IMG/VR virus record: IMGVR_UViG_3300048549_001527
DNA from: a virus
Taxonomy: Duplodnaviria > Caudoviricetes
Strand: one strand, 5' to 3'
DNA length: 64,000 nucleotides
In this document: piece after piece, positions 12,357 through 29,998 of the stretch
Position numbering within the stretch: the stretch's first letter is position 1
Layout of the letters: each line of letters opens with the position of its first letter
The notes under the pieces: model-generated
The model's input: the letters and a program-made list of their open reading frames with translations, nothing else
What the model was told of the DNA's origin: nothing
The model's database searches: none
Program-made: the position numbers and the translations under genes

Positions 12357-13066
12357 TTTAACACCTCGTAAGCATTGACCTGAAGAGCAAAAAAGAAAGT
12401 ATATACTCTTTCCGCAGTCGAGTAAGCGTGATGCCATTTTGCTGTATCAGCCAGATATAATCTGCCTTTTTCAACGTTTTCTTCTTCTATATATTCTTGT
12501 TTTTCTTCATCCCAAAAACAAAAATGATTATTTTCTGGATCGTTAGTTCCCCATATTCTCAAATTTGCAGGAGGAATAGTTACATCAATGTGTGGTTTGA
12601 AATGTGCCCCCGTGTTCCATTTTAATATAGTACAACGTGCTAACATTCCGTCAAATATTTGCATAGGATCTAAAGATTTCATATTTTTCATTATTTCATT
12701 TGGATATTTGAAATCTGTATCAAACAATGGGTTGTCTGGATGTTCTAAACACCACACATCCATTGGCCAATTAACTGGACTTGGTTTCATATCAATTGGA
12801 TTTTCAAGGTCTGTAAGTCCAAGAGAATACCTTTCTAAGTCAGTATGAGTAGGTCCAAATTGCTCGAATAAATGGTCGTATCTTTTTATCTCTTCTTCAA
12901 ATAAATCACAATCAATTTTTATATCCAAAGGAACAAGATTTTTAGTGTGAATTTCTCTATACTTTTCTTCAGGTAATCTATCTCGAGATAAAGAAAGATT
13001 TCTAAAATGTTCCCATTCCGGCCAGTTTGATAGTTTATCATAATTAGATCCAGGTTCATAATTCAT
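12353..13066 (-). CDS. 2OG-Fe(II) oxygenase 4
   Basis: FKPHID...WHHAYS. Confidence 0.75.
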   Translation of the reverse strand: MNYEPGSNYDKLSNWPEWEHFRNLSLSRDRLPEEKYREIHTKNLVPLDIKIDCDLFEEEIKRYDHLFEQFGPTHTDLERYSLGLTDLENPIDMKPSPVNWPMDVWCLEHPDNPLFDTDFKYPNEIMKNMKSLDPMQIFDGMLARCTILKWNTGAHFKPHIDVTIPPANLRIWGTNDPENNHFCFWDEEKQEYIEEENVEKGRLYLADTAKWHHAYSTAERVYTFFFALQVNAYEVLK

Positions 13067-13599
13067 AGTAAAACTCCAACCAAATGAATTCTTTCTGATC
13101 TACTACCATTAAAGGCTGCATGCATTTTTTCTGTATTAGTAATCCACCACTCATTATAAGGAATATGAAATACCTCATTTTCTATTACCATCTTGCAGGA
13201 TTGATCTGTTTTTATTGGGTAATGCAATCTTTTACTAACATCTTTATGCCAACTAGTACAAGCAAAAGGAACACTGCGCATTAGTCTTAATCTTCCTATT
13301 GTGTATCGATCATTTAGAAGATTAAAAACTTCTTCGAAAATTGTTCCTCTAAAAACATCACACAGAACAATAAAATCTTCATCGTATAGCGGATGTTCAA
13401 ATTTTGGTAAACGAACTATGTTTCCTGCTTTATCTTTAACTACTTTATCCCAATTGTAATATAAGCTTTTACATCCTATAGTCCAGTCATGAGATTTTCC
13501 TCCCGGAGCATTCAAGCAAATTTGGTTAAGATTCCAATTTACCAAACCTTTTGATATGAGCTGTCTTAACTCGTCTTCTAAATTTTCAAAAATTGGCAA
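13063..13599 (-). CDS. 2OG-Fe(II) oxygenase 5 (Asp/Asn beta-hydroxylase-like)
   Basis: SWHKD...LHYPI...MHAAFNGS...RIHLV; TTG start. Confidence 0.8.
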   Translation of the reverse strand: MPIFENLEDELRQLISKGLVNWNLNQICLNAPGGKSHDWTIGCKSLYYNWDKVVKDKAGNIVRLPKFEHPLYDEDFIVLCDVFRGTIFEEVFNLLNDRYTIGRLRLMRSVPFACTSWHKDVSKRLHYPIKTDQSCKMVIENEVFHIPYNEWWITNTEKMHAAFNGSRSERIHLVGVLL

Positions 13600-13622
13600 G
13601 TCGTTTAATTTAGAAAAGTGTT

Positions 13623-14225
13623 CTATTTTGAAACTCCTTCCAATTGTTTATATGCCCAGATTTTTTCTCTGCATTGCCAACATTCTTTGCATTCATTAAT
13701 AGTATTTGTAAGGCAACTCATTGTATTTGATAAATCTATATTTAACTTATTTGCTAGATCTATAATGTGATATTTATATAAATGAAGAAAAGGCGCGATT
13801 AGTTTATCGTTATTTTGTATTCTCCAAGGTCTGTAAGGAGCACCGTCTTTTAAATCTGGAAAATAATGACTCGGTGGAGTATGATTTATTCCAATGTATA
13901 ATTGATCATATTTACTTTGAATGGAAGCAATGGCTTCTTTTATCCTCAAATCTGGATTTAAAGTAGTTTCTTTAAATCTATGAACTTTTTGATTTGTTAA
14001 GGACTCTACTCGAGATGGATTGTCGAATCCATCTTTTCTATCTATAGTGTACACATCTGGATTATACGACTTAATTAAATTATATAAAACTAAACTATCT
14101 ATACCGCCTGACATCATAAGAGCAATTTTTCCAGCAGGAGATATAGTAACTAATCTTCTATCCCAAGTTGGACCGACTTTATGCATGGTTTTTATATTTG
14201 GAATAGTTTCACCAACTTTAATCAT
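13623..14225 (-). CDS. QueC-like PP-loop ATPase
   Basis: MMSGGIDS PP-loop; PF.HL.K.HII motif; C-terminal SC...CKECWQC zinc motif. An alternative GTG start lies at 14237. Confidence 0.75.
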   Translation of the reverse strand: MIKVGETIPNIKTMHKVGPTWDRRLVTISPAGKIALMMSGGIDSLVLYNLIKSYNPDVYTIDRKDGFDNPSRVESLTNQKVHRFKETTLNPDLRIKEAIASIQSKYDQLYIGINHTPPSHYFPDLKDGAPYRPWRIQNNDKLIAPFLHLYKYHIIDLANKLNIDLSNTMSCLTNTINECKECWQCREKIWAYKQLEGVSK

Positions 14226-14278
14226 ATTACGAAACACCTTTTACTTTTGCGACCATACTAAAAAATAATGTATACGTA

Positions 14279-15802: not shown

Positions 15803-15831
15803 TTGACATTCCGTCGCGAATCAGATATATT
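15803..15831 (+). promoter_or_regulatory. Sigma70-type early promoter
   Basis: TTGACA-17nt-TATATT. Confidence 0.8.
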
Positions 15832-16142: not shown

Positions 16143-16300
16143 TGGATTATAAAGATCTTGTAAAAAAGTTTGTCTCTGAAGGCGGTTCCATTACAAAGTG
16201 TGAACCGTCAAAGAAACGTTTCAAAACATTCCGCGGCAAGGCGGGAGCCTACAATCGTGGTGCTAAGAAAATCAATTTGCAGGATAAAGGTATTGCATAA
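16142..16300 (+). CDS. Small basic hypothetical protein (52 aa, not in ORF track)
   Basis: MDYKDLVKKFVSEGGSITKCEP...; TAATG coupling at both ends. Confidence 0.65.
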   Translation: MDYKDLVKKFVSEGGSITKCEPSKKRFKTFRGKAGAYNRGAKKINLQDKGIA

Positions 16301-16833
16301 TGTGTAAATCTGCTATTAAAAATCTCGCATCTTTACTTCGCACTGAAGTCTTCGACAAAATTGATTCCTATTGGACTGAGGCTGAAACTTATAGTATTAT
16401 TGAACTCAGAGATTTAGGTAGCGGATATTACGACGAAGATCGTTATCAAGTTAATCATATTGTTGCTCCTAAAAGGAGCGGTAGATCTATTGATGCAAAT
16501 AGTGCCAAAGGCGTATACATTTGGTATCACGGAGATCAGATTATGTATGTTGGTAAAACAGACGCGCCTTCAACGAGTATTCACAAACGGCAATATGCCC
16601 ACTCGCGTAGCTTTACAACACCACACGAAAGACACGAATCTTCAGGACGTAAATATCGCGAGTTTTTAAAAGAAAATAATTTACATTCTATGGATATTGT
16701 GATAAAATATATTAATACTGATAAGTTTGATATTGAAGGTATGGCAGAACTCATTGAAACTGCAACTATTAATAATTATCAGCCATTACTTAATCGTGAA
16801 ATTAAAGGGAGAGGCCAGAGAGAATGCTATTAA
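16300..16833 (+). CDS. Single-domain GIY-YIG endonuclease (DenA/EndoII-like size)
   Basis: GVYIW...IMYVGKT...KR...LIE...I..YQPLLN. Confidence 0.8.
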   Translation: MCKSAIKNLASLLRTEVFDKIDSYWTEAETYSIIELRDLGSGYYDEDRYQVNHIVAPKRSGRSIDANSAKGVYIWYHGDQIMYVGKTDAPSTSIHKRQYAHSRSFTTPHERHESSGRKYREFLKENNLHSMDIVIKYINTDKFDIEGMAELIETATINNYQPLLNREIKGRGQRECY

Positions 16834-17378
16834 TCATTGAAGGTATGGATCGCTGTGGTAAATCCACATTGGTACAAAACCTACGTAAAAAATATTTTAA
16901 AAATCCAAACATAATGGCTCACCATTCATCTTCTCCTCCTGACTTTGAAGATCCTAATGGTTGGGAAAAAGAACATTATGAGTCTTTGTTCATTGCATCT
17001 AAACGACTTGTAAATCAAATGAATTATGATATTATCTTTGACCGTTTCCATCTCGGTGCAATCGTCTATGGCGAAAAGTATCGTGCTGCAGACGGTAAAG
17101 ACATTTATGAATTAGATCGAAGGTTTCTTAGCGGATATAAAAATGCCGCTCTAATTTTGTTGACTGATACTACTGACGGTATTATGTCTCGTGATGATGG
17201 CGATAGCCTTGAACAAAGTAAAGAAGATTTCTTATATAGTCGTAACGCGTTTTTGACTGCGTTCAACGAGTCAAGCTGTAAACATAAACTAAGCATAAAT
17301 ATAACAAAGAACGGTGGAGTGGGTAACACATATGATACCGTTGTAAATTTTTTAGATGGAGTTCGTAATGAGAATTGA
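16824..17378 (+). CDS. Thymidylate kinase-family dNMP kinase
   Basis: IIEGMDRCGKST P-loop; IIFDRFHLG. Confidence 0.85.
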   Translation: MLLIIEGMDRCGKSTLVQNLRKKYFKNPNIMAHHSSSPPDFEDPNGWEKEHYESLFIASKRLVNQMNYDIIFDRFHLGAIVYGEKYRAADGKDIYELDRRFLSGYKNAALILLTDTTDGIMSRDDGDSLEQSKEDFLYSRNAFLTAFNESSCKHKLSINITKNGGVGNTYDTVVNFLDGVRNEN

Positions 17379-18066
17379 TAGTGTACATGACATTCGTGAG
17401 TTCTTTAAAGGCGAGCTAGCCGACGAAGCATTTACAATTGATAAGACAGGCCAACGGACTATTGAATTAATTGGCGCAAACTTTCTTGCAACAGAACCTG
17501 CAATCTTTGGTGAACCAAGTCAAGCTTATATTAACTCTGAGCTTGCTTGGTATGAGTCGCAATCAACAAACATTAATGATATCTATGGACCATCCAAACC
17601 TGCTCCTGCCGCATGGCAATATTCAGCAGATCCACACGGTAATATTAATTCCAATTATGGTCATTTAGTATTCTCTAAAAAATATCATAACCAATTCCAA
17701 AATGCTTTTGATGAACTATGGAGTAACCCTGATAGCCGTCGTGCTCAAATGATTTACAATCGTCCATCTATTTGGGTTGAGTTTGACGAAGGTGGTAAGT
17801 CTGACTTTATTTGTACTAATGCACAAACGTTTTATATCCGCGATGGCATTCTGATGATGGTGTCACAAATGCGTTCTAACGACGCAATCTTTGGCTATAA
17901 AAACGACTATGCTTGGGCTCAATATCTTATGGATAAGTTTGTTGCTCAATGGAACCAACAATGTAAACTTCCTGGCAATAAGCACTTTACTATTGATAAA
18001 GGTATGCTTACATGGCAAGCTATGAATTTGCACGTGTATGAGCGCCACTTTGACTTGGTTGTATAA
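17368..18066 (+). CDS. 42: T4 gp42-like dCMP C5-modifying enzyme (thymidylate synthase superfamily; hydroxymethylase or hydroxylase)
   Basis: DKTG..TIELIGA.F, ELAWY, INSNYG, DSRRA.MIY.RPS, SDFICTN (catalytic Cys), MRSND..FGYKNDYAW (Asp at the position that selects dCMP), LHVYERHF. Confidence 0.88.
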   Translation: MRIDSVHDIREFFKGELADEAFTIDKTGQRTIELIGANFLATEPAIFGEPSQAYINSELAWYESQSTNINDIYGPSKPAPAAWQYSADPHGNINSNYGHLVFSKKYHNQFQNAFDELWSNPDSRRAQMIYNRPSIWVEFDEGGKSDFICTNAQTFYIRDGILMMVSQMRSNDAIFGYKNDYAWAQYLMDKFVAQWNQQCKLPGNKHFTIDKGMLTWQAMNLHVYERHFDLVV

Positions 18067-18071
18067 ATAAC

Positions 18072-18323
18072 ATGAGTAAACTAATTCTTATTTCTGATAT
18101 TATTGAGACGCGGCTTCGTAAAGAAAAAGAAATTGAATATTATCAGAAGCAACTTGAAAAAATACAAAACAAAATGTTCTTCCTCAAAAAGGATCTTGAT
18201 ATCACAACATTAATTATTGACATGATTGAAAAAGAAAAGGTTGTTGATTTTAAAGAACAGATGGAGGACAAAACTATTATGTTAGGAAACAATAATGTGG
18301 ACAAAACCAAGACTGAAAACTAG
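18072..18323 (+). CDS. Coiled-coil hypothetical protein
   Basis: 83 aa ORF, Lys/Glu-rich heptads. Confidence 0.7.
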   Translation: MSKLILISDIIETRLRKEKEIEYYQKQLEKIQNKMFFLKKDLDITTLIIDMIEKEKVVDFKEQMEDKTIMLGNNNVDKTKTEN

Positions 18324-18576
18324 GCTAAAAGAAGGTAAATTTCTTGTAACTTGGAATAAAAGTTCTAAGACTAATGCAAACACACCTAGCACAACAAGGT
18401 CGTGTGAAGTTACATTAAAGCCAGAATTAATTCCAGAAGATAAACGCCATCGTTTACCTAATCCCCCGGCAACTGCAGATTACAGAGTTGGTGTATGGGA
18501 TTGCGAATTAAATGTATGGCATGTCGATGGAATACCGGCAACAAGAGTTATATCTGTTGTAGAAGTAACCGATTAA
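18295..18576 (+). CDS. DUF2693/WYL_2-like small phage protein
   Basis: LKEG.FLVTW.K...R...TL...IP...VWD.E...W pattern. Confidence 0.5.
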   Translation: MWTKPRLKTRLKEGKFLVTWNKSSKTNANTPSTTRSCEVTLKPELIPEDKRHRLPNPPATADYRVGVWDCELNVWHVDGIPATRVISVVEVTD

Positions 18577-18594
18577 AAACTGAAAGATTATATT

Positions 18595-19104
18595 ATGGAA
18601 GAACGTGAGCCTTACGAGGCATACATGCGTAGGCGCAATTTAGAAGAAGACACCCGTGAATTAAAATGGGATAACCGCTTTATGGAATTGGCTAAAACAA
18701 TTTCAGGATGGAGCAAAGATCCTTCGAGTAAAATTGGTGCAGTGGCAGTAAACGATGAACGCCGCATACTTGCGACTGGATATAACGGTTTCCCAAAAGG
18801 CATTGAAGATAGTCAAGAAAGACTAAACGATAGAGAACAAAAATATCCGCTTATTGTTCACGCTGAAACAAACGCGTTGATGAATGCGCTTTATGCTGGT
18901 GTTTCTTTAAAAAATGCAACAATGTACGTTCATGGATTACCCGTGTGTCCTGACTGTACTAAGCTTATTATTCAAGCAGGCATTCGTAGAATTGTTATTA
19001 ACAAATTCGTAATGAATACTCCAGAAAAATGGGTTGAGCTATGGAATAGCAAATCAGGACCTATGTTTAAAGAGGCAGGCGTATTGGTAACACAGCTTGG
19101 CTAA
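18595..19104 (+). CDS. cd: dCMP deaminase
   Basis: SKDPSSKIGA, GYNGFP, HAE.NA, PVCPDC zinc motif. Confidence 0.92.
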   Translation: MEEREPYEAYMRRRNLEEDTRELKWDNRFMELAKTISGWSKDPSSKIGAVAVNDERRILATGYNGFPKGIEDSQERLNDREQKYPLIVHAETNALMNALYAGVSLKNATMYVHGLPVCPDCTKLIIQAGIRRIVINKFVMNTPEKWVELWNSKSGPMFKEAGVLVTQLG

Positions 19105-19759
19105 TAATTTAACTGATATATATGTTGGCGTTAAGAAAAACGATCCTAATCGTAAAAAGAATGACTTTTATCCAACTCCGCCTCTTGCCACATATGTATT
19201 GTGCAAGTATGGTAATCCTCCACAAAATTTAATTGAACCTTGTGCCGGTCGAGGTAACATAACAAGAGAATTAGTTCGTAACGGTCATAATGTTATATCG
19301 TATGACTTAAATGATTATAGTGATAAATTAGTACCTATTAAAACTACAGTTGATGCTATGGAATTACAAAAGCTTGATGGCTTTGATGGTGTAGTTACCA
19401 ATCCCCCATATCATAAAGACTTGCCGCGGAAGATGGCGGAAAAATGGATAAAAGAATATGATTACGTCGCAATGTTTTTAAGACTAACTTTCTTTGAAGG
19501 AAAAAAACGAAATAAACTATTTACAAACTACCCGCCTAGTGATATAATATTTTTATCAGATCGAGTTAGATTTGATTCTAATATTGTAGAACCAATTGAA
19601 AAGAAAGATCAGATCGGCGGCATGATTGCATATGCTTGGTTCATTTGGAACAAAAAGTATCCGCAAGGATTAACTAAAATGCGTTGGGCAATGCTTGAAG
19701 ATGAATATGACGAGTGGAGATTAAATTATGATAAATGTAGTAATACCGGCAGCAGGTGA
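19097..19759 (+). CDS. Amino-DNA methyltransferase (N6-A or N4-C)
   Basis: DFYPTP, IEPCAGRG (motif I), VTNPPY (motif IV). Confidence 0.82.
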   Translation: MANNLTDIYVGVKKNDPNRKKNDFYPTPPLATYVLCKYGNPPQNLIEPCAGRGNITRELVRNGHNVISYDLNDYSDKLVPIKTTVDAMELQKLDGFDGVVTNPPYHKDLPRKMAEKWIKEYDYVAMFLRLTFFEGKKRNKLFTNYPPSDIIFLSDRVRFDSNIVEPIEKKDQIGGMIAYAWFIWNKKYPQGLTKMRWAMLEDEYDEWRLNYDKCSNTGSR

Positions 19760-21203
19760 GGCAACAAGATTAAAGCCATTAACTGCAAATTGCTCGAAGG
19801 CAATGATACGCGTACACGGTAAACCTACTATTGAATATATTATTGAGTCAGTTCATAATAACGGCGCTGTAGTTAATCAAATCATTATAGTTGATGGCAA
19901 GCATGACGATATTCGTGAGTGGGTTGCAAAATCAAAATATAATAATATTAAATGTGTAAAACAAGGATCTCTTAACGGTCCTCGTGATGCTATTGATGTT
20001 GGTATTAACAGTTTAGAAAATCCTACGTATCCTTTAGTTGTATGGCTAGGGGATGCAATTATTCTTGAAGAAGAACTACCTTTAGGCACTGACTTTTTAT
20101 TAACCAAAGAAGTTGAAGATCACTTTGCTTGGTGTATGTGGGATGGTAAAAAATACTTTAATAAACCAAAAGAAAATATTGAACAAGCTTCAGCTCTAGT
20201 AGGTCTATACAGTTTCAGTAGAGGATACGAAGCATATCACGCTTTTCACTACTCAAAAGGTTATGACATATCAGATGCTTTGGAGTTATATGAAGAACAC
20301 GCTTCATTTAATAATATCAACACGGAAAAATGGTATGACATCGGCGACATATCTTCATATCACAAAACTTGCGCAACTCTACTAACATTCAAAGCTCGTG
20401 AATTTAATTCGTTTGAATACAATTCAGATCTTAATATGATTACTAAATGGCCGCAGTCTGATAATAAATTTGCCGTTAAGACTATTATGAATGAAAAGAA
20501 TTGGTATGAAAATCTGAGCCCACTGCAAAATATGTTTGTTCCTAAAATTTTGCCAGATCCATATGCACTAACAATGTCATATGAGTCTGGTATTTTGCTA
20601 TCTGATTTGTTTATGCATGAGGATCTAAGCCCGTCTACTATTGAATACTTAATTGAAAAGGTATTCATTATAATGAACAAGTACTTCCATAAAAAAGCAA
20701 CACTTGAATTTGTCGCAGACTTTTGGGATAACGCTGAAAAAATGTGGATTGATAAAACCAAAAATCGTGGCGCTGATGATTATTATCTTGATGTTGCAGA
20801 GCGCTGTCTTAGTAGAGCTCGCCCAGTTTCAGGTATGCACGGTGATTTGCATTTCGGTAATATTCTTTATAATCCATATAACGATAGCATTACCTTGTTA
20901 GATCCGCGTGGCTCTTATGGAGATCATGTTGGTTGCGGCGGAGATTGGATGTATGATATGTGCAAATTGTCACACGACCTTTTCCATGGATATAATGAAT
21001 TAGTTTCCGGGCATAAATACCCTCAGACAGTACGTGAAACCTTTGGCCGATTGGTACTTAAATATTACCCTGACGCATATGATGATATTATTGACGGCGG
21101 CGCTTTGTTAATTGCAACTTGTTTGCCATTACATTACGACTGTGAAGAACGCCAACAAAGAATGAGAGATTATATTAATGAATACGCAAACCTTAGTAGT
21201 TGA
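19728..21203 (+). CDS. Sugar-phosphate nucleotidyltransferase fused to an APH/choline-kinase-like domain
   Basis: N-terminal VIPAAG.ATRLKPLT...KAM..V.GKP, W.DIG; C-terminal HGDLHFGNILY and LLDPRG. Confidence 0.88.
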   Translation: MINVVIPAAGEATRLKPLTANCSKAMIRVHGKPTIEYIIESVHNNGAVVNQIIIVDGKHDDIREWVAKSKYNNIKCVKQGSLNGPRDAIDVGINSLENPTYPLVVWLGDAIILEEELPLGTDFLLTKEVEDHFAWCMWDGKKYFNKPKENIEQASALVGLYSFSRGYEAYHAFHYSKGYDISDALELYEEHASFNNINTEKWYDIGDISSYHKTCATLLTFKAREFNSFEYNSDLNMITKWPQSDNKFAVKTIMNEKNWYENLSPLQNMFVPKILPDPYALTMSYESGILLSDLFMHEDLSPSTIEYLIEKVFIIMNKYFHKKATLEFVADFWDNAEKMWIDKTKNRGADDYYLDVAERCLSRARPVSGMHGDLHFGNILYNPYNDSITLLDPRGSYGDHVGCGGDWMYDMCKLSHDLFHGYNELVSGHKYPQTVRETFGRLVLKYYPDAYDDIIDGGALLIATCLPLHYDCEERQQRMRDYINEYANLSS

Positions 21204-21537
21204 TATTGATGACACGATTTGTACTCCGTTGCATGGCAGATCTGAATCTGAAGTTAAGTACGGAATGGCAAATCCTAATCGCCCAATGATTGCAAGTTTA
21301 CAAAAAGCAAAGAAAAACGGATATCGCATTGTACTTCATACCGCGCGACGAATGCTTACTCACGATGGTGACATAAATAAAATCATTAATGACGTCGGAA
21401 AAATAACCACAGACTGGTTGGATAAGTACGAAGTACCTTATGATGAAATTGTGTGGGGTAAACCACACGGTGTTTATTACATTGATGATAAAGCAATGAC
21501 TCCTGAAGAGTTCGTTAAGATGATGGAATGGAAGTGA
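21178..21537 (+). CDS. HAD-family phosphatase (capsule-biosynthesis phosphatase type)
   Basis: VVDIDDTIC, LHTARRM, WGKP, YYIDDKA. Confidence 0.85.
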   Translation: MNTQTLVVDIDDTICTPLHGRSESEVKYGMANPNRPMIASLQKAKKNGYRIVLHTARRMLTHDGDINKIINDVGKITTDWLDKYEVPYDEIVWGKPHGVYYIDDKAMTPEEFVKMMEWK

Positions 21538-21539
21538 TT

Positions 21540-22784
21540 ATGAAAAACATTGGTTTCGCAAAGATTGGTAAATCTATTAAATTTAAAACTAACAAGTACT
21601 CTCCCATTGGTGGAGATAATGAAGCGTCTTGCACTATACGAGCAATGGCAAACAACAACCCAGACAAAACGTTTTACCTAATTGGTCGTTCTGACTTTGG
21701 TGCATTGTCTGATACTGAACGTTTAGATTTGTTCCCATATGATAATGTAATTGACTGTTGGCACGGCGTTCCTTTGGCAATGTCAGAAACATATTATAAT
21801 CATATTATTAATTATTTTAAAGACATTGAGCTTGACTTTTCTGTTATGATGATTGGGCAAATTAGTAATGTTACAATCCCAGATAAAATTTGGAAAGTAC
21901 GTGAAAGTCAACAAGACGGCAAACCTGCTGCAACTCTTGATATGACTAAGTGGTACACAACTCCTATTACCAAATGGCTAAACGAAAGTAAGCCACGATG
22001 GATAGAAATTGTTAACGATCCACGATATGTTATCAAACAACCACGTGATGTATTTCATATGCCTTTCCGTTCTCTTGGACAATACGATTATGATTATGAA
22101 ACATTTTCTATTACTGATTACGAAAACCAAGAAAGATTAGTACGGGTTGTTCATTCTGAATATGCAGGAATGGAAACTGCTTTTTGCGGCGATTATGAAT
22201 ACACTGAACAAGTAAACACGGATCGTAACACAGACTTTATGGTTGTACTTAATGAAGGCAAACCGTCACGCTATAACTTACTTAAAAGCTGGGTACTTGA
22301 TAAATTTGATAACGTTGATATATACGGTAAGTGGCTCGACGAACGTGCTGAAAGCGACGAAAGGTTTAAAGGATCATTACATATCAATGAGATCCAAGAT
22401 AAACTACAGGATGTTAAGTTTACATTTATCATTCCAATTAAAGAAGGTTGGACCACATCAAAATATATTGAAATGATTCACGCTGGTGTTATTCCTTTCC
22501 TTCATCCAACTTATGACGACCAAGGTCATTTGCCTATTCCTAACTTTCTTAGACCTAAAACGCCTGAAGAATTTTATACAAATATGCAAAGACTAATTGA
22601 CAACCCAACAGAATACGAAACGGTTCTCAATGGATTGCGTAAAGCAATTCTTAAACCAGAATATTATGATGGTAGCTTTATTAATGACAATATTATGAAA
22701 GCTGCTGACGAAAATTATAAAAGACCTGACATGTTGCAGTTTACAAAGAAAAAAGCTGCGACACTTGAAGACTTTTTTGCATAG
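21540..22784 (+). CDS. GT-B fold glycosyltransferase, probably DNA-modifying (beta-glucosyltransferase-like)
   Basis: N-terminal G.AKIGK; C-terminal YGKW...FTFIIP...TSKYIEMIHAGVIPF GT-B signature; position inside the gp42/NDP-sugar locus. Confidence 0.65.
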   Translation: MKNIGFAKIGKSIKFKTNKYSPIGGDNEASCTIRAMANNNPDKTFYLIGRSDFGALSDTERLDLFPYDNVIDCWHGVPLAMSETYYNHIINYFKDIELDFSVMMIGQISNVTIPDKIWKVRESQQDGKPAATLDMTKWYTTPITKWLNESKPRWIEIVNDPRYVIKQPRDVFHMPFRSLGQYDYDYETFSITDYENQERLVRVVHSEYAGMETAFCGDYEYTEQVNTDRNTDFMVVLNEGKPSRYNLLKSWVLDKFDNVDIYGKWLDERAESDERFKGSLHINEIQDKLQDVKFTFIIPIKEGWTTSKYIEMIHAGVIPFLHPTYDDQGHLPIPNFLRPKTPEEFYTNMQRLIDNPTEYETVLNGLRKAILKPEYYDGSFINDNIMKAADENYKRPDMLQFTKKKAATLEDFFA

Positions 22785-22794
22785 AGGATATAAA

Positions 22795-24006
22795 ATGAGC
22801 GAAATTACATGGGCCCCAATTATTCCACTAATCGGTGGACAAATGCTAGGAGCAGAAAAAGCTTTTGGAAAACCACCTGAAGCTATCTATTCATACGCGG
22901 ACTTTGAAGGAAACGATAGTCATTATGTTAACTATCAGCAAAACGTCAAAGGGCGTGACGTACAATATAAAATGATACCTGAAAGTTCAAGTCGACATAT
23001 AAGTGTTATTTCAGGCACACCACCTTGTGCGGCATTATCACAACTTAACACTGGTAAAACCGAAGCGGCAAAAGGTGCAAAATGCGAAAAGAACGAATGG
23101 ATGTACGAAGTCTTTAAAGAAGGCATTAACCGATTTTCAGCTAAAGCTATTGTTGTTGAAAACGCTCCTGCACTGTTTACTAAAAAAGGTAAAGAAGTAG
23201 CTGATAATTTGTTTGACATTTGCTCAAAAGCAGGGTATAGTTTAACTCTATATAAAACATCTACAAAATATCATGGTATCCCACAAGCTAGAGATCGTTG
23301 TTTTGCCATTGGTTGGAATTCAGAAACCGCTCCTATTATGAATTGGTACAAACGGCCTCGTAAAAAGTTTCACGAATATCTTTCGGATTTAACAGACGAT
23401 ATTCAACAAATGGATATTTTGTGTAACAAAAAACTTGATGAAGAACCTTACTATCAATACATCAAGTCACTTACAAACGAAGATCCTCGTAAGGTAATTA
23501 TGGAAAGCGGACAGATTACGGCATTTAACTATATTAATAAAAGTGGTAAATTGCCTGCTTGTAATAAATGGATGCATGATACAAATAACGAACGCGGTAT
23601 CAAAGTATCAGACCATGCTGTTAAAAAGTTTGCAATGGGTAAAGGTATTTGGGATAGCTCAACACACGTCTTTGGAGATTGTATGAATGCAGTTATCGGT
23701 CGTAACCTTGCAGATACAATTCATCCAAAGTTTGATCGTTCTTTAACTATTCGTGAAGCGTTGTATCTTATGGGTTTCCCTCATGACTTTGAGCTTGTTG
23801 GCGGATTACCTAAAATGAATCATATTGCTCAAAACGTTCCTGTTCCAACATCAAGAGATATTCATACTGAAATCGGTAAGTTTATTCGTGGCGAGTTAAC
23901 GATGTCAGATACTAATTACCATCGTCAAGATAACCATAACGAACGGATGTGGTCTGATCCGGGTGGGAAAAACAACCAAGCAACACTTGAGGAGTTCATG
24001 GCTTGA
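22795..24006 (+). CDS. Divergent DNA cytosine-C5 methyltransferase
   Basis: GTPPCAALS (motif IV), VVENAP (VI), PQARDRCF (VIII), LTIREALYLMGFP (IX), IAQNVP (X); motif I degenerate (IIPLIGG). Confidence 0.82.
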   Translation: MSEITWAPIIPLIGGQMLGAEKAFGKPPEAIYSYADFEGNDSHYVNYQQNVKGRDVQYKMIPESSSRHISVISGTPPCAALSQLNTGKTEAAKGAKCEKNEWMYEVFKEGINRFSAKAIVVENAPALFTKKGKEVADNLFDICSKAGYSLTLYKTSTKYHGIPQARDRCFAIGWNSETAPIMNWYKRPRKKFHEYLSDLTDDIQQMDILCNKKLDEEPYYQYIKSLTNEDPRKVIMESGQITAFNYINKSGKLPACNKWMHDTNNERGIKVSDHAVKKFAMGKGIWDSSTHVFGDCMNAVIGRNLADTIHPKFDRSLTIREALYLMGFPHDFELVGGLPKMNHIAQNVPVPTSRDIHTEIGKFIRGELTMSDTNYHRQDNHNERMWSDPGGKNNQATLEEFMA

Positions 24007-24638
24007 AACACGACTTTATTATAGATTTTGAGACATTCGGCAAGGATGCTCAAAAGTGCGCAGTGATTGACTGTTCGGTGATGGTATTCAGTTGGGATAA
24101 AATGATTTCAGCTGATCCATATACTCTTGCAGATATATCAAAAACAAAACGATTTAAACTATCCGTGGTAGATCAAGTTAAAAATTATGGATGGGAAATT
24201 GATAAAGGAACAGTTACATGGTGGGAATCCTTAGGACCTGAAGTTCGTAGGAACATTAAACCACTTCCAACTGATTTAACTGTTGCTGATTTTACCAAGC
24301 AATTTCATGACTTTTTAATTGACTCGCCAAAGATTAGTAAATGGTGGTCTAGGTCAAATACATTTGACCCGATTATTCTTGGTCGTTTATTTCAATCACA
24401 AGATAAACTATTACATATGGAAGAGTACTTAAAGTATTGGGCAGTCCGCGATACACGTACTTATATTGATGCAAAGTTTGATTTTAAGCAAAAGAATGGG
24501 TTTATTCCATTTGCTGACGAACAGCGTTGGGAACAGATGTTTAAAGCTCACGACAGCTCGTGGGATATTTTAGCAGATGTATTACGCATGCAAGCAATTC
24601 GTAGGGCTGAGGAAGATTTAGAACAGGTGACAACATGA
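24003..24638 (+). CDS. dexA: DexA-like DEDD 3'-5' exonuclease
   Basis: IIDFET, SRSNTFD.IIL, VRDTRT, AHDSSWD. Confidence 0.8.
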   Translation: MKHDFIIDFETFGKDAQKCAVIDCSVMVFSWDKMISADPYTLADISKTKRFKLSVVDQVKNYGWEIDKGTVTWWESLGPEVRRNIKPLPTDLTVADFTKQFHDFLIDSPKISKWWSRSNTFDPIILGRLFQSQDKLLHMEEYLKYWAVRDTRTYIDAKFDFKQKNGFIPFADEQRWEQMFKAHDSSWDILADVLRMQAIRRAEEDLEQVTT

Positions 24639-25528
24639 ATTTAAACGTAACTATTGAAGACTTACAACAATATAAAATCTTTGTTGGTACACCAATGTAT
24701 GGTGGACAATGCGCAGGCTTATTCACAAAGGCTTGTAACGATCTTGCTATGTTGTGTACGGCTAATAAAATTCCAATTAAGTTTTATTATCTTTTTAATG
24801 AAAGTTTGGTACAAAGAGCTCGTAACTATATTGTTGATGAATTCCTACGCTCAGACTCAACGCATTTAATGTTTATTGATTCCGACATTGGTTTCAATCC
24901 AAGAGATGTTATTTCACTTATGGCAATATATCATTCAGATCCTGATAAGTATGACATTTTGACCGGACCTTATCCTAAAAAGACTATTGCGTGGGAAAAA
25001 GTTCATATGGCCGCAAAGGCAGGTAAAGGCGATGAAAATCCTTTTGAGCTTAACGAATTTACTGGAGACTTTGTATTTAATCCAGTAGGTGGAGTTACTA
25101 GTTTTAAAATGGATGCACCACTTGAAGTTGGTGAAGCAGGTACAGGATTTATGTTAATACCTCGTAAAGTATTTGAAGATTACCGAGCTGCATACCCTGA
25201 ATTGTCATATAAGCCAGACCACGCAAGAACTGAAAACTTTGACGGAGAACGTGATATTACAGCATTCTTTGATTGTATAATTGATCCAAAAACACGGCGG
25301 TATTTGTCTGAGGATTACTTCTTTTGTCAAAAGGCAAGAGCAATACAAAAAAGAGTTTGGATGTGTCCATGGATGAGAATGACTCATGTTGGTTCTTATA
25401 TGTTTAACGGTAATATGTCTGCTCTTGGATCTTTAGGAGCGTCTCCAACCGCAAATAAACAAAGCAATTCTAAGAACTATAAAAAACCATTGACAAAAAC
25501 CAAAAAACGTAATAAAATAAACAAATGA
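24635..25528 (+). CDS. GT-A fold glycosyltransferase-like protein
   Basis: GTPMYGG, LVQRARN, FIDSDIGF (DxD), GTGFMLI, LSEDY.FC. Confidence 0.7.
   Translation: MNLNVTIEDLQQYKIFVGTPMYGGQCAGLFTKACNDLAMLCTANKIPIKFYYLFNESLVQRARNYIVDEFLRSDSTHLMFIDSDIGFNPRDVISLMAIYHSDPDKYDILTGPYPKKTIAWEKVHMAAKAGKGDENPFELNEFTGDFVFNPVGGVTSFKMDAPLEVGEAGTGFMLIPRKVFEDYRAAYPELSYKPDHARTENFDGERDITAFFDCIIDPKTRRYLSEDYFFCQKARAIQKRVWMCPWMRMTHVGSYMFNGNMSALGSLGASPTANKQSNSKNYKKPLTKTKKRNKINK
25490..25518 (+). promoter_or_regulatory. Sigma70-type promoter for the clamp/loader operon
   Basis: TTGACA-17nt-TAAAAT within the 3' end of the upstream gene. Confidence 0.7.
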
Positions 25529-25550: not shown

Positions 25551-26216
25551 ATGAAATTTTCTGAACGCACTCTTACTATTCTTAAGAGTTTCTCTACTAT
25601 CAACAAATCAATCCAAATGAAGCAAGGGAATACCCTTCGTACCATTACACCTGAAAAAACACTGATTGCATCCGCAACAATCCCAGATCAGTTTCCATCA
25701 GAAGCATGTATTTACGATTTGTCAAGATTTTTATCAATTTTGTCACTTCATACTGCGCCAGACGTAGAGTTTCATGATAAATACTTTGTAATCACAGAAG
25801 GTAAACAGCGTACTCGTTACGCCTTTGCCGACGTTTCCATGATACACGCAGCGCCTGAAAAAACCATTGAATTGCCGTCGGCTGATGTGGTTGTTGATGT
25901 ATCTTGGAATGATTTGCAATCTGTTCAAAAAGCGGCAGGTGTTCTTCAGTTTAATGAAGTTGCATTTGTTGGCCAGGATGGAAAGTGTTACTTAAAGGCC
26001 ATTGATAGTTCGTCTGCGGCAGCGGATGACTACGGTGTAGAAATTGGCGATACTGCCGATGAGTTTAAAATTATTATTAAAACTGATAATTTGAAGCTCT
26101 TACCTCAAGATTACAGAGTTACGCTGTCAAGTAAAGGTATCTCTGAATTTAAAGGTGAAGACGTCACGTATTTCGTGGCTATTGATACAAAGTCGACTTA
26201 TAAGAAAGGATCCTAA
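25551..26216 (+). CDS. 45: Sliding clamp
   Basis: MKFSERTLTILKSFSTINKSI, IYDLSRFL, NLKLLPQDY.V; operon with the clamp loader. Confidence 0.92.
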   Translation: MKFSERTLTILKSFSTINKSIQMKQGNTLRTITPEKTLIASATIPDQFPSEACIYDLSRFLSILSLHTAPDVEFHDKYFVITEGKQRTRYAFADVSMIHAAPEKTIELPSADVVVDVSWNDLQSVQKAAGVLQFNEVAFVGQDGKCYLKAIDSSSAAADDYGVEIGDTADEFKIIIKTDNLKLLPQDYRVTLSSKGISEFKGEDVTYFVAIDTKSTYKKGS

Positions 26217-26218
26217 TT

Positions 26219-26476
26219 ATGGATGAAAATCAACAACCTGAAAATCCAGGTGGAATTAACCTACAAGATATGGCAACAGTTGTTCAAATCATTGACATTG
26301 CCTCGCGTCGTGGTGCTTTTGAAGGCCGTGAACTGCAAGGTGTTGGCATGCTTCGGAATAAAATTGAAGCGTTCTTACGTGCACAACAGCAACAGCCTGA
26401 AGGTATGATGCCGCCACCTGACGCAGCAGCAGATGTCCCTCAAGATGCACCACTTGCAGATAAAGTGACAAACTAA
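26219..26476 (+). CDS. Hypothetical protein
   Basis: 85 aa ORF between gp45 and gp44 (IIDIASRRGAFEG). Confidence 0.75.
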   Translation: MDENQQPENPGGINLQDMATVVQIIDIASRRGAFEGRELQGVGMLRNKIEAFLRAQQQQPEGMMPPPDAAADVPQDAPLADKVTN

Positions 26477-26544
26477 TTGTTGAAACGAACGCGGGCAATC
26501 GTTGTAAAACAAACCCGCACCTTATTTTATATTATGGAGACAAT

Positions 26545-27498
26545 ATGTCTATTGATGCTAAACAAAATGAAGTGCTCTGGGTTGAGCGCTATCGGCCGCA
26601 ACTTATCGCGGATACTATACTTCCTGAAAAAACTAAATCTATGTTCACAAAGTTTGTTACGGATAACAGCGTACCAAACTTATTGCTAACTGGCGGCCCA
26701 GGCGTTGGCAAAACTACAATTGCGAAAGCAATGCTCGAAGAACTCGGCTGTGATTATATTGTAAAGAACGGCTCTTTGAATGTTAACATCGATACTCTTC
26801 GTTATGATATATCAACATATGCCTCTGCTGTATCGCTACAAGGTGGTCGCAAATATGTAATCTTTGACGAAGCTGATTACCTTAATGCTGCAAATGTTCA
26901 ACCAGCTTTGCGTAATTTTATTGAAGAATATTCTTCAAACTGTGGCTTTATTTTTACTTGTAACTTTAAGAATAGAATTATTCAGCCATTACGTTCTCGG
27001 TTGTCTGAAGTTGACTTTACAATTGAAACATCTGACCGTCCTAAACTTGCAATGCAGTTTATGAAACGAGTTACGCAAATCCTCGAACAAGAACAAGTAG
27101 AATATGACCAATCTGTTGTTGCAAAGGTTATTCAAAAACACTTCCCTGATTTCCGTCGTGTACTAACTGAACTGCAATCCTACTCAGCATCAGGTAAAAT
27201 TGACGAAGGTATCTTTATCAATTTGAAGCAAGAGTCCATGGATGAATTGTTTCGTTTGTTAAAAGCTAAAGACTTTACTAATATGCGTAAATGGGTTGCA
27301 AAGAATAGCGATCAAGATATGAATGAAATGTTCCGTCGCATTTATGATATGGGATCTGATAAAGTTTTAATGAAATCATTACCTGGGTTTGTTGTAACTC
27401 TGGCAGATTATATGTATAAGGCAAACTTTGTTGCAGATCTTGAAGTCAATATGGTTGCATTCTTAACTGAAGTAATGATTGAAGCCGAATATAAATGA
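26545..27498 (+). CDS. 44: Clamp loader large subunit (AAA+)
   Basis: WVERYRP, GGPGVGKTT, IFDEAD, ALR..IEE, LRSR. Confidence 0.95.
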   Translation: MSIDAKQNEVLWVERYRPQLIADTILPEKTKSMFTKFVTDNSVPNLLLTGGPGVGKTTIAKAMLEELGCDYIVKNGSLNVNIDTLRYDISTYASAVSLQGGRKYVIFDEADYLNAANVQPALRNFIEEYSSNCGFIFTCNFKNRIIQPLRSRLSEVDFTIETSDRPKLAMQFMKRVTQILEQEQVEYDQSVVAKVIQKHFPDFRRVLTELQSYSASGKIDEGIFINLKQESMDELFRLLKAKDFTNMRKWVAKNSDQDMNEMFRRIYDMGSDKVLMKSLPGFVVTLADYMYKANFVADLEVNMVAFLTEVMIEAEYK

Positions 27499-27701
27499 GT
27501 GAATGGATAAAAAAACTAATAGGTGTCCACACTTGTTTCAATTGTGAAAAATATATTGATAAGAAAGATATATACAATGTAGATCTTGATACGCTTGATG
27601 GAGTACTACACCTAAAGCTATGCCCAACTTGTGCTAAAGATTTTGATGATATGATGAAAGAATTGGAGGAAGTAATTGCCGAAAGAGATAACACCATTTG
27701 A
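27495..27701 (+). CDS. Small zinc-finger protein
   Basis: CFNC...CPTC; coupled to gp44 and gp62. Confidence 0.65.
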   Translation: MSEWIKKLIGVHTCFNCEKYIDKKDIYNVDLDTLDGVLHLKLCPTCAKDFDDMMKELEEVIAERDNTI

Positions 27702-28092: not shown

Positions 28093-28154
28093 TAAATATT
28101 GAGAATCGCAATTGAGCGTTCAGTGATAATAATAATAAAAAAGGTGCTGTCGTT

Positions 28155-29964: not shown

Positions 29965-29970
29965 GTACTA

Positions 29971-29998
29971 TTGACAAAATAATAAACTATGTTATATT
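29971..29998 (+). promoter_or_regulatory. Sigma70-type promoter
   Basis: TTGACA-16nt-TATATT with extended TG. Confidence 0.7.

What the first reader, a model, noticed from the sequence alone, without database searches (positions are those of the whole stretch)
16300..24006. Self-contained cytosine hypermodification locus with its own NDP-sugar pathway
Seen: nuclease, dNMP kinase, gp42-like enzyme with catalytic Cys and the dCMP-selecting Asp (KNDYAW), nucleotidyltransferase-kinase fusion, HAD phosphatase, GT-B and two MTases, all co-oriented. Known: T4 uses gp42 plus glucosyltransferases with host UDP-glucose, whereas RB69-type arabinosylating phages add a kinase, NTP transferase, phosphatase, sugar-phosphate isomerase and a U32-family protein. 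Here the isomerase and U32 gene are not in the window, and a C5-MTase is present. Inference: a glycosylated 5-substituted cytosine with a phage-made, probably non-glucose sugar, possibly a new base, in a marine alphaproteobacterial phage.
Basis: partly seen in the sequence, partly recalled or inferred. Interest (0 to 1): 0.88.

Follow-up and report, generated by a model that had tools for sequence, protein, structure and literature searches.

The report
Sugar-coated hydroxymethylcytosine module, marine T4-like phage
An uncultured marine T4-like phage carries one tight gene block that should replace cytosine by 5-hydroxymethylcytosine and then attach a sugar the phage activates itself. The sugar-adding enzyme and a puzzling cytosine methylase both end in the tail that this lineage's DNA polymerase uses where T4-type polymerases grip the sliding clamp.

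Summary
The genes are real, co-oriented and packed without gaps from 16300 to 24006.

- **The thymidylate-synthase homolog (17356-18066) is a T4 gp42-type dCMP hydroxymethylase.** It is not the RB69-type 5-hydroxycytosine synthase. It keeps the catalytic Cys, Asp at the ThyA L143, D169 and N177 positions, and groups with T4 gp42.
- **The sugar genes are homologs of a known phage sugar-activation route.** The fused nucleotidyltransferase-kinase (19728-21203) and the HAD phosphatase (21178-21537) are distant but true homologs of AfhE and AfhF. These enzymes make UDP-arabinose in RB69-type phages.
- **The 418-aa protein is a GT-B glycosyltransferase.** Its nearest solved fold is T4 beta-glucosyltransferase.
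- **No arabinose-5-phosphate isomerase, U32 protein or gp56-type dCTPase was found.** This holds for the window and for four near-complete relatives.
- **The sugar is unresolved.** Nothing computed here shows it is not glucose.
- **New detail on the clamp.** The glycosyltransferase and the C5-methyltransferase end in ATLE(D/E)F(F/M)A, the same tail as the lineage's DNA polymerases. A complex model supports docking on gp45.

The module is common in marine viromes. It also occurs in Pseudoalteromonas phage XG4 and Enterococcus Denvervirus phages. This scan has already reported the same module on another genome (e1-5335966). I rate it a new variant of a known kind. The chemistry is untested.

The parts
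15803..15831 (+). Best sigma-70-like promoter match upstream of the gene block (TTGACA-17-TATATT)
   Evidence: This is a consensus match only. No gap longer than about 20 nt follows until 25551.
16300..16833 (+). Putative GIY-YIG nuclease (weak assignment)
   Evidence: Pfam Eco29kI E 3.8e-5, below the cut-off. GVYIWY...YVGKT motif visible. No PDB match. 47-93% identical homologs occur in some relatives.
16824..17378 (+). Thymidylate-kinase-like P-loop nucleotide kinase. Its end overlaps the start of the hydroxymethylase gene.
   Evidence: PF02223 E 1e-7, phrog_761 E 1e-9. P-loop GMDRCGKST. The nearest PDB sequence is YorR, the same top hit as the cluster kinase of DLP3 in PMC13326640.
17356..18066 (+). 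gp42-type dCMP hydroxymethylase (5hmdCMP synthase)
   Evidence: PDB 1b49/1b5e E 8.7e-57. 44% identity to T4 gp42 against 22-24% to 5hoC synthases. Asp/Cys/Asp/Asp at the ThyA L143/C146/D169/N177 positions. Groups with T4 gp42, support 94/97.
18072..18576 (+). Two small overlapping ORFs of unknown function (83 and 93 aa)
   Evidence: No family hits. Conserved in a subset of relatives.
18595..19104 (+). dCMP deaminase
   Evidence: PF00383 E 3e-21, phrog_174 E 3e-45. HAE and PCxxC zinc motifs. Syntenic in nearly all relatives.
19097..19759 (+). Small amino-methyltransferase with an NPPY motif (probably m6A)
   Evidence: phrog_799 E 2e-43. Motifs EPCAGRGN and TNPPY. Absent from some relatives.
19728..21203 (+). 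AfhE-like bifunctional enzyme: N-terminal sugar-1-phosphate nucleotidyltransferase, C-terminal APH-type sugar kinase
   Evidence: PF00483 E 6e-14. AF2 pLDDT 91, N-terminal domain like GalU/RmlA. Kinase motif HGDLHFGN...DPRG. hhalign against the RB69-type AfhE homolog gives probability 98.6%, E 8e-16, over residues 3-430.
21178..21537 (+). AfhF-like HAD phosphatase
   Evidence: TIGR01689 EcbF-BcbF E 4e-23. PDB 1xpj E 4e-19 and 9iqw E 1.7e-4. 9iqw is titled 'Capsule biosynthesis protein', and I take it to be HY126 AfhF from its entry series. DIDDT motif.
21528..22784 (+). GT-B glycosyltransferase, nearest fold T4 beta-glucosyltransferase, with the C-terminal tail ATLEDFFA
   Evidence: AF2 pLDDT 90.9. 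Foldseek top hit 1qkj, E 6e-9. VIA-align Z 22.0, rmsd 3.4, 308 residues aligned to 1c3j. Tail seen and nearly invariant in the family.
22795..24006 (+). C5-cytosine methyltransferase family protein with an unusual motif I (IIPLIGG) and the C-terminal tail ATLEEFMA. The ORF opens at a TTG at 22765; the likely ATG start is at 22795.
   Evidence: PF00145 86.8 bits. Motifs IV, VI, VIII, IX and X align to Dnmt1. The N-terminus and tail are conserved in 41 distinct homologs, with a variable middle. Complex model with gp45.
25551..26216 (+). gp45 sliding clamp, proposed docking platform for the two tailed enzymes
   Evidence: PF09116 E 9e-18. Complex prediction score 0.61 against a best control of 0.01.

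Best explanation
The block is a two-stage cytosine hypermodification system of the T4 type, joined to a sugar-activation kit of the kind recently described for RB69-type phages.

**Stage 1, before replication (inferred from family membership).**
- The gp42-type enzyme converts dCMP and methylene-tetrahydrofolate to 5-hydroxymethyl-dCMP.
- The translationally coupled thymidylate-kinase-like kinase probably makes the diphosphate.
- Host enzymes make the triphosphate, and the phage polymerase incorporates it.
- The dCMP deaminase diverts part of the dCMP pool to dUMP for the separate canonical ThyA that relatives encode elsewhere.

**Stage 2, on DNA (inferred).**
- The AfhE-like kinase domain phosphorylates C1 of a sugar phosphate taken from host metabolism.
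- The HAD phosphatase removes the distal phosphate.
- The AfhE-like N-terminal domain makes the NDP-sugar.
- The beta-glucosyltransferase-like GT-B transfers the sugar to the hydroxymethyl group of hmC in newly made DNA.

**Clamp tethering.** The glycosyltransferase and the C5-methyltransferase both end in the peptide that ends this lineage's DNA polymerases. They most likely ride on the gp45 clamp behind the fork.

**Methylation.** The NPPY methyltransferase adds a further methylation layer, and the C5 enzyme may add another.

**Still open:**
- The sugar is not identified.
- No gp56-type dCTPase was found, so replacement of C may be incomplete. That would leave ordinary C as substrate for the C5-methyltransferase.
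For: **The hydroxymethylase**
- It matches T4 dCMP hydroxymethylase at E 8.7e-57.
- It has Asp, not Asn, at the ThyA D169 position, plus Asp at the L143 and N177 positions. RB69-like, Thanatos and Acinetobacter homologs have Asn at D169. PMC13326640 gives this residue as the diagnostic.
- It groups with T4 gp42, support 94/97.
- Three relatives also carry a full-length ThyA elsewhere, so the gp42 homolog is not their thymidylate synthase.

**The sugar kit**
- The AfhE-like protein is homologous to an RB69-type AfhE homolog over both domains (hhalign probability 98.6%). Its nucleotidyltransferase and kinase motifs are intact.
- The HAD matches 1xpj and 9iqw, which I take to be HY126 AfhF.

**The glycosyltransferase**
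- The model is confident (pLDDT 90.9).
- T4 beta-glucosyltransferase is the top match in two independent structure searches.
- T4 alpha-glucosyltransferase and the HY126 DNA glycosyltransferase also rank high.

**Linkage of the parts**
- The order TS, deaminase, kit, GT, C5-MTase, exonuclease, gp45 is conserved in dozens of IMG/VR loci.
- A kinase-TS-HAD-AfhE-like-GT set recurs in Enterococcus phage 9183. A TS-HAD-AfhE-like-GT-MTase-dCTPase set recurs in Pseudoalteromonas phage XG4.

**The clamp tail**
- Only the glycosyltransferase and the methyltransferase, out of 330 open frames in the window, end in the motif.
- DNA polymerases of four relatives end in TLEDFFG, TLESFFV or SLESFFM.
- The complex model of gp45 with the methyltransferase tail scored 0.61 against a best control of 0.01. 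In calibration that mark was reached by 51 of 78 solved complexes and 2 of 108 mismatched pairs. The runs agree in at least 47% of contacts. The partner's pLDDT is at least 41, so its own fold is uncertain. The interface falls on residues 405-413.
Against: - No enzyme activity or DNA composition was measured, so every chemical step is inferred.
- No gp56-type dCTPase or MazG was found in four near-complete relatives. T4-style full replacement of C is therefore unsupported.
- A conserved C5-methyltransferase is hard to reconcile with a base already substituted at C5. XG4 keeps both the methyltransferase and a dCTPase.
- The glycosyltransferase shares only 10-13% identity with T4 beta-glucosyltransferase and matches no Pfam family. 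Its acceptor is inferred from fold, synteny and the tail.
- A complex of RB69 gp45 with a polymerase C-terminal peptide has been solved (my recollection). The complex pass may therefore reflect likeness rather than binding by this copy.
- The kit is only 22-25% identical to RB69-type AfhE/AfhF homologs.
Confidence: 0.68

Rival explanations
1. This is the same pathway, but the sugar is plain glucose. The kinase/phosphatase/nucleotidyltransferase kit only makes UDP-glucose, for example from glucose-6-phosphate, for a host that supplies little of it. The base would then be the already known glucosyl-hmC of T-even phages.
For: - The nearest fold of the glycosyltransferase is the UDP-glucose-dependent T4 beta-glucosyltransferase.
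- The N-terminal domain of the AfhE-like protein is nearest to GalU and RmlA, which are glucose-1-phosphate nucleotidyltransferases.
- No isomerase or other sugar-tailoring gene occurs in the window or in complete relatives.
Against: - The characterised homologs of the kit make UDP-arabinose (PMC13326640).
- Fold-level likeness at 10-20% identity does not fix donor specificity.
- Relatives swap the kit for a non-homologous one (APH kinase, a 305-aa protein and a cytidylyltransferase-like enzyme). That is easier to explain if the donor is unusual.
Confidence: 0.2
2. This is an RB69-type system. The thymidylate-synthase homolog would be a flavin-dependent 5-hydroxy-dCMP synthase, and the DNA would carry arabinosyl-5-hydroxycytosine.
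For: Component for component, the cluster resembles the DLP3 and RB69 clusters: Tmk-like kinase, TS homolog, AfhE, AfhF and GT-B.
Against: - The diagnostic D169N change is absent here and in every marine relative examined.
- The enzyme is 44% identical to T4 gp42 but 22-24% to 5hoC synthases, and falls in the gp42 clade.
- The arabinose-5-phosphate isomerase is absent here, while the same search finds it in the RB69-like control.
Confidence: 0.05
3. The sugar kit and the glycosyltransferase do not act on DNA. They would decorate host lipopolysaccharide or a virion protein, as was assumed for pelagimyophage glycosyltransferases. The DNA would then carry only hmC plus methyl marks.
For: - PMC7029224 interprets pelagimyophage glycosyltransferases as LPS-related.
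- The window holds other glycosyltransferase-like genes, for example the GT-A-like 24635-25528.
Against: - The glycosyltransferase ends in the polymerase-type clamp tail.
- Its best structural matches are the DNA glycosyltransferases of T4 and HY126.
- It is linked to a dCMP-specific TS homolog in three unrelated phage lineages.
Confidence: 0.07

Closest known systems
T4 hmC glucosylation system (gp42 dCMP hydroxymethylase, gp1 dNMP kinase, gp56 dCTPase, alpha- and beta-glucosyltransferases, host UDP-glucose)
   Same: - A gp42-class enzyme with the same active-site signature.
- A dCMP deaminase, and in relatives a separate thymidylate synthase.
- A GT-B whose nearest fold is T4 beta-glucosyltransferase.
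- A link between a glucosyltransferase and gp45. From my own recollection, not checked here, T4 alpha-glucosyltransferase was reported to interact with gp45 (Sommer et al. 2004).
   Different: - The phage brings its own NDP-sugar route.
- The kinase is thymidylate-kinase-like, not gp1-like.
- No gp56-type dCTPase was found in relatives.
- A C5-methyltransferase is part of the conserved block.
- The glycosyltransferase is not a sequence-level member of the T4 families (no Pfam hit).
Afh-type arabosyl-5-hydroxycytosine clusters of RB69, HY126 and Acinetobacter phage DLP3 (PMC13326640)
   Same: - Tmk-like kinase next to a TS homolog.
- A bifunctional AfhE (kinase plus NDP-sugar pyrophosphorylase).
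- An AfhF HAD phosphatase.
- One or more GT-B DNA glycosyltransferases.
   Different: - The TS homolog here is the hydroxymethylase class (Asp at D169), so the attachment point is CH2OH and not OH.
- No arabinose-5-phosphate isomerase and no U32-like gene.
- A single GT-B.
- The kit proteins are only 22-29% identical.
Pseudoalteromonas phage vB_Psh_XG4 (PP712099, unannotated) and Enterococcus Denvervirus phage 9183
   Same: - XG4: hmC-class TS (34% identical), HAD (42%), AfhE-like (25%), glycosyltransferase (44%) and C5-methyltransferase (50%) in one block.
- 9183: Tmk, dCMP-type TS, HAD, AfhE-like (29%) and glycosyltransferase (30%).
   Different: - XG4 also has a gp56-type dCTPase in the block. 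Its enzymes lack the clamp-type tail.
- The 9183 region examined lists no annotated C5-methyltransferase, and phage 9183 was not among the tblastn hits of the window's C5-methyltransferase.
- The papers I searched report no DNA chemistry for either phage.

Membership tests
T4 gp42-type dCMP hydroxymethylase (5hmdCMP synthase) | Thymidylate-synthase fold with the catalytic cysteine | tested here: met
   PF00303 E 6.7e-11, above the cut-off. Cys lies in DFICTN, aligned to T4 Cys148.
T4 gp42-type dCMP hydroxymethylase (5hmdCMP synthase) | Asp at the ThyA N177 position (dCMP selection) and an acidic residue at the L143 position (water access) | tested here: met
   KNDYAW and SDFIC. The criteria come from PMC13326640.
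T4 gp42-type dCMP hydroxymethylase (5hmdCMP synthase) | Groups with experimentally proven gp42 rather than with other TS classes | tested here: met
   44% identity to T4 gp42. Clade support 94/97, separate from ThyA and from 5hoC synthases.
T4 gp42-type dCMP hydroxymethylase (5hmdCMP synthase) | Produces 5hmdCMP from dCMP and methylene-tetrahydrofolate | not testable with these tools
   Needs an enzyme assay or the in vivo assay of PMC13326640.
5hodCMP synthase (RB69 gp48 / DLP3 gp80 class) | Asn in place of Asp at the ThyA D169 position | tested here: not met
   The window has RSND. RB69-like, Thanatos and Acinetobacter enzymes have RSQN or RSEN.
Afh-type NDP-sugar kit (AfhE + AfhF) | Bifunctional protein with an N-terminal sugar-1-phosphate nucleotidyltransferase and a C-terminal APH-type kinase, homologous to AfhE | tested here: met
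   hhalign probability 98.6%, E 8e-16, residues 3-430. Motifs. Domain folds. APH-family look-alikes.
Afh-type NDP-sugar kit (AfhE + AfhF) | Small HAD phosphatase homologous to AfhF | tested here: met
   PDB 1xpj E 4e-19 and 9iqw E 1.7e-4. tblastn to the RB69-like homolog E 4e-7.
Afh-type NDP-sugar kit (AfhE + AfhF) | Phage arabinose-5-phosphate isomerase (SIS domain) supplying the substrate | tested here: not met
   No SIS domain in the window or in four near-complete relatives. The same search finds it in the RB69-like control.
Afh-type NDP-sugar kit (AfhE + AfhF) | Substrate is arabinose-5-phosphate and product is UDP-arabinose | not testable with these tools
   Substrate specificity cannot be read from 22-29% identical homologs.
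T4 beta-glucosyltransferase-like DNA glycosyltransferase | GT-B fold closest to the T4 DNA glucosyltransferases | tested here: met
   1c3j Z 22.0, rmsd 3.4, 308 residues aligned. 1y6f Z 18.1. 9iqz Z 17.3. Foldseek top hit 1qkj, E 6e-9.
T4 beta-glucosyltransferase-like DNA glycosyltransferase | Sequence-level membership in a curated glycosyltransferase family | tested here: not met
   No Pfam, NCBIfam or PHROG family at the thresholds used. One distant homolog carries PF13524.
C5 DNA cytosine methyltransferase (PF00145) | Score above the family cut-off, with catalytic motifs IV (PC), VI (ENV-like), VIII (QxRxR) and X | tested here: met
   86.8 bits against a cut-off of 22. GTPPCAALS, VVENAP, PQARDR and AQNVPVP align to Dnmt1.
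C5 DNA cytosine methyltransferase (PF00145) | Canonical SAM-binding motif I (FxGxG) | tested here: inconclusive
   It is replaced by IIPLIGG, which is nearly invariant across 41 distinct homologs. The Pfam match starts at profile position 10. Cofactor use cannot be computed here.
gp45 clamp-binding C-terminal peptide | Extreme C-terminal motif shared with the lineage's own DNA polymerase | tested here: met
   The glycosyltransferase ends in ATLEDFFA and the methyltransferase in ATLEEFMA. Polymerases of relatives end in TLEDFFG, TLESFFV or SLESFFM. Only 2 of 330 frames in the window carry the motif.
gp45 clamp-binding C-terminal peptide | Physical binding to gp45 | tested here: inconclusive
   The complex model passes (0.61 against a best control of 0.01), but a like complex has been solved (my recollection), so the pass shows likeness only. 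A pull-down is needed.

The most novel reading that the evidence does not exclude
Abundant marine T4-like phages, possibly pelagimyophages, would make a base not yet described: 5-hydroxymethylcytosine carrying a non-glucose sugar, such as a pentose activated from a sugar phosphate by the AfhE/AfhF-like kit. The sugar would be installed at the replication fork by a clamp-tethered glycosyltransferase. The always-adjacent, clamp-tethered C5-methyltransferase look-alike, with its altered motif I, would take part in the hypermodification instead of simply methylating leftover cytosine.
Probability: 0.3. Interest if true: 0.8.

Novelty: new variant of a known kind. Interest (0 to 1): 0.62.

Why it matters
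- **A third combination.** Phage cytosine hypermodification was known in two forms: hmC with host UDP-glucose (T-even phages) and 5-hydroxycytosine with phage-made UDP-arabinose (RB69 type). This locus joins the hmC entry point to an RB69-type sugar kit, so the parts look interchangeable.
- **It is common.** The glycosyltransferase family has more than 340 protein clusters and 251 IMG/VR loci, mostly marine. A published pelagimyophage survey read the two TS-family genes simply as thymidylate synthases.
- **Consequences if the DNA is glycosylated.**
  - It would affect how marine viromes are sequenced and quantified.
  - It would bear on how these phages evade host nucleases.
- **A testable way to couple modification to replication.** The shared polymerase-type tail on the glycosyltransferase and the C5-methyltransferase suggests both work at the fork.
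- **Two cultured carriers make the chemistry directly testable:** Pseudoalteromonas phage XG4 and Enterococcus phage 9183.

Tried and rejected
- **Ordinary thymidylate synthase:** rejected. The enzyme has Asp at the N177 position, and relatives carry a canonical ThyA elsewhere.
- **5-hydroxycytosine synthase:** rejected on the D169 residue and the tree.
- **dCTPase, isomerase and U32:**
  - Searched with MazG, T4 gp56 protein and phrog_173.
  - Searched with SIS and U32.
  - Nothing was found in four relatives that are at least 91% complete.
  - phrog_173 and SIS do ring in control phages.
  - The window itself was searched by tblastn with the RB69-type proteins and T4 gp56, without hits.
- **dUTPase-fold gene at 28566-29075 as a substitute dCTPase:** it scores as an ordinary dUTPase equivalog, so I did not claim that role.
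- **Cyanophage origin:** suggested by plastocyanin and Hsp20 genes, but complete relatives lack psbA.
- **Searches that led nowhere:**
  - DNA-level search of phage records gave only short patches.
  - PDB sequence searches for the nuclease and the NPPY methyltransferase gave nothing useful.
  - No solved full-length AfhE appeared in the Foldseek list, which the N-terminal domain filled.
  - The kinase domain was not searched separately by fold.
  - No tRNA genes were found for host inference.
  - No whole genome is held for this window.
  - One literature search failed on a term that was too short, so the reported T4 alpha-glucosyltransferase-gp45 interaction rests on my recollection only.

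Full report
**What is there**

The window is a 64-kb piece of a T4-like myophage. It carries gp45, gp44, gp62 and RegA at 25551-28562 and baseplate genes further on. No whole genome is held for it.

The genes from 16300 to 25528 lie on the + strand and overlap or abut. The best sigma-70-like promoter matches sit in the intergenic gaps just upstream, at 14300, 14538 and 15803.

**The entry enzyme**

The protein from 17356-18066 matches T4 dCMP hydroxymethylase in the PDB at E 8.7e-57.

This needed care. A 2026 paper (PMC13326640) showed that the gp42-like enzymes of RB69, DLP3 and Thanatos make 5-hydroxy-dCMP, not 5-hydroxymethyl-dCMP. It gave Asn at the E. coli ThyA D169 position as the diagnostic residue.

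- In my alignment the window enzyme, T4 gp42 and the Pseudoalteromonas phage XG4 enzyme have Asp there (RSND or RSCD).
- The RB69-like, Thanatos and Acinetobacter enzymes have Asn.
- Every marine relative examined has Asp/Cys/Asp/Asp at the L143, C146, D169 and N177 positions.
- In a maximum-likelihood tree the window enzyme falls with T4 gp42, support 94/97. It sits apart from the 5hoC synthases and from canonical ThyA.
- Three relatives carry a full-length ThyA elsewhere.

This gene is therefore the hydroxymethylase and not the phage's thymidylate synthase.

**The sugar kit**

The 491-aa protein has an intact nucleotidyltransferase motif (AAGEATRLKPLT...K) and an APH-type kinase motif (HGDLHFGN...DPRG).

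- Its model is confident (pLDDT 91), with a GalU/RmlA-like N-terminal domain.
- A profile comparison with the AfhE homolog of an RB69-like phage gives probability 98.6%, E 8e-16, over both domains.
- The 119-aa HAD protein has the DxDxT motif.
- The HAD matches PDB 1xpj (E 4e-19) and 9iqw (E 1.7e-4). I take 9iqw to be HY126 AfhF from its entry series.
- The HAD also matches the EcbF-BcbF capsule phosphatase subfamily.

In HY126, AfhE phosphorylates arabinose-5-phosphate at C1, AfhF removes the 5-phosphate, and AfhE then makes UDP-arabinose. The same kinase, phosphatase and transferase logic is the natural reading here.

The substrate is open.

- No SIS isomerase or U32 gene is in the window (and the Pfam scans) or in four relatives that are at least 91% complete. 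The same search finds the isomerase in the RB69-like control.
- The kit is closer to that of Enterococcus phage 9183 (29% identity, E 7e-31) than to RB69-type kits (22-24%).
- Enterococci are Gram-positive and have no KDO pathway (general knowledge), so they are not expected to supply arabinose-5-phosphate. Phage 9183 has no isomerase either.

This argues for a widely available sugar phosphate as precursor. It leaves both pentose and hexose possible.

**The transferase**

The 418-aa protein has no Pfam hit. Its AlphaFold model (pLDDT 90.9) is a GT-B.

- T4 beta-glucosyltransferase is the top match by Foldseek (E 6e-9).
- It is also the top match by an independent all-against-representatives alignment (Z 22.0, rmsd 3.4, 308 residues aligned).
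- T4 alpha-glucosyltransferase (Z 18.1) and the HY126 DNA glycosyltransferase (Z 17.3) follow.

**Conservation**

- The glycosyltransferase family has 344 protein clusters at E up to 0.001, mostly from marine metagenomes including Tara and GOS. It has 251 confirmed IMG/VR loci.
- The order TS, deaminase, kit, GT, C5-MTase, exonuclease, 297-aa protein, gp45 is kept in dozens of loci and on a 182-kb JGI contig.
- One subgroup replaces the AfhE-like gene with an APH-type kinase, a 305-aa protein and a cytidylyltransferase-like enzyme. The donor-making genes therefore behave as a swappable cassette beside a conserved transferase.
- The same set of parts occurs in Pseudoalteromonas phage XG4 and in Enterococcus phage 9183. 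Both have dCMP-type TS homologs with Asp at the D169 position.

**Clamp tails**

I checked this.

- They end in ATLEDFFA and ATLEEFMA.
- They are the only two of 330 open frames in the window with such an end.
- The tail is nearly invariant in both families.
- The DNA polymerases of four relatives end in TLEDFFG, TLESFFV or SLESFFM.
- The C-terminus is where T4 and RB69 polymerases carry their clamp-binding peptide (my recollection of those structures).

A complex model of gp45 with the last 45 residues of the methyltransferase scored 0.61 against a best control of 0.01.

- In calibration that mark was reached by 51 of 78 solved complexes and 2 of 108 mismatched pairs.
- The runs agree in at least 47% of their contacts.
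- The partner's pLDDT is at least 41, so its own fold is uncertain.
- The interface falls on residues 405-413.

A like complex has been solved (my recollection), so this pass shows likeness and not proof of binding. XG4's enzymes lack the tail, so the tail is specific to this lineage.

**The methyltransferase puzzle**

The protein is a clear PF00145 member with motifs IV, VI, VIII, IX and X. Motif I reads IIPLIGG and is conserved. The middle of the protein, where the target-recognition domain lies, varies as it does in ordinary sequence-specific enzymes.

A base already substituted at C5 cannot be methylated there.

- No gp56-type dCTPase was found in relatives, while the same profile rings in the RB69-like phage and in XG4.
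- The simplest reading is therefore partial replacement of C, with methylation of what is left.
- XG4 keeps both a dCTPase and this methyltransferase in one block, which this reading does not explain well.

**Host**

- Relatives lack psbA, so they are not typical cyanophages.
- The baseplate gp6 is nearest to Sinorhizobium and Caulobacter phages. The clamp loader is nearest to Stenotrophomonas and Methylophilales phages.
- The window also carries radical-SAM cassettes and Asp/Asn hydroxylases. Relatives carry two TS-family genes plus a dCMP deaminase. This matches the description of pelagimyophage group C in PMC7029224.

An alphaproteobacterial host is plausible but not shown.

**Verdict**

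It is an hmC-based, phage-supplied glycosylation system, but 'non-glucose', 'self-contained' and the host are not established.
- This scan already reported the same kind of module on another genome (e1-5335966). My results agree with that report.

Noticed in passing
window 662-6359 (+): Five tandem radical SAM genes. The first two carry SPASM domains at their N-terminal ends. They are followed by unannotated ORFs up to 10872.
   Followed up: no
window 11237-14237 (-): A minus-strand block: two Asp/Asn beta-hydroxylase-like proteins, a fatty-acid desaturase-like protein and a protein with a QueC-like C-terminal segment (PF06508, E 7e-10 over residues 143-198 only).
   Followed up: no
window 24635-25528 (+): A 297-aa protein with a DSD motif and GT-A-like (GT2/Anp1) look-alikes, phrog_1574. 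It lies between the exonuclease and gp45. It is 55% identical to Stenotrophomonas phage DLP6 AAY80_034. It might be a second glycosyltransferase of the module or unrelated to it.
   Followed up: partly
L064:7605-9976 (and L042, L053, L060-L085): In a subgroup of relatives the AfhE-like gene is replaced by an APH-type kinase (346 aa), an unassigned 305-aa protein and a cytidylyltransferase-like protein (PF01467). The flanking deaminase and glycosyltransferase stay conserved.
   Followed up: partly
L007:11299-13540: On a 182-kb relative, a GIY-YIG/NUMOD3 homing-endonuclease-like gene sits between the glycosyltransferase and the C5-methyltransferase. The methyltransferase matches in two pieces separated by about 250 bp.
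   Followed up: no
L001:7649-9641 (Stenotrophomonas phage DLP6, KU682439): DLP6 has an unannotated HAD gene (48% identical to the window's) directly upstream of an AfhE-like gene (AAY80_029). The DLP6 paper called that gene ModA. No TS homolog lies in the 17.5-kb region examined.
   Followed up: partly
L101/L102 (relative G002, 170447-172835): The DNA polymerase B of this complete 201-kb relative is read as two open frames (499 and 369 aa), not one of about 850 aa.
   Followed up: no
window 29506-32097 (+): Hsp20, a plastocyanin/azurin-family copper protein and a DoxX-like protein follow the replication genes. These look like cyanophage auxiliary genes, yet relatives lack psbA.
   Followed up: partly
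window 42685-44226, 50472-53126 and 60445-61281 (+): Structural-region proteins carry a Peptidase_M15 domain, a subtilase S8 domain (884-aa protein) and an S74 intramolecular chaperone domain.
   Followed up: no
L002:7001-7549 (Pseudoalteromonas phage XG4): XG4 encodes a gp56-type dCTPase immediately after its C5-methyltransferase. In that phage the whole set (TS, kit, glycosyltransferase, methyltransferase, dCTPase) lies within the first 8 kb of the record.
   Followed up: partly
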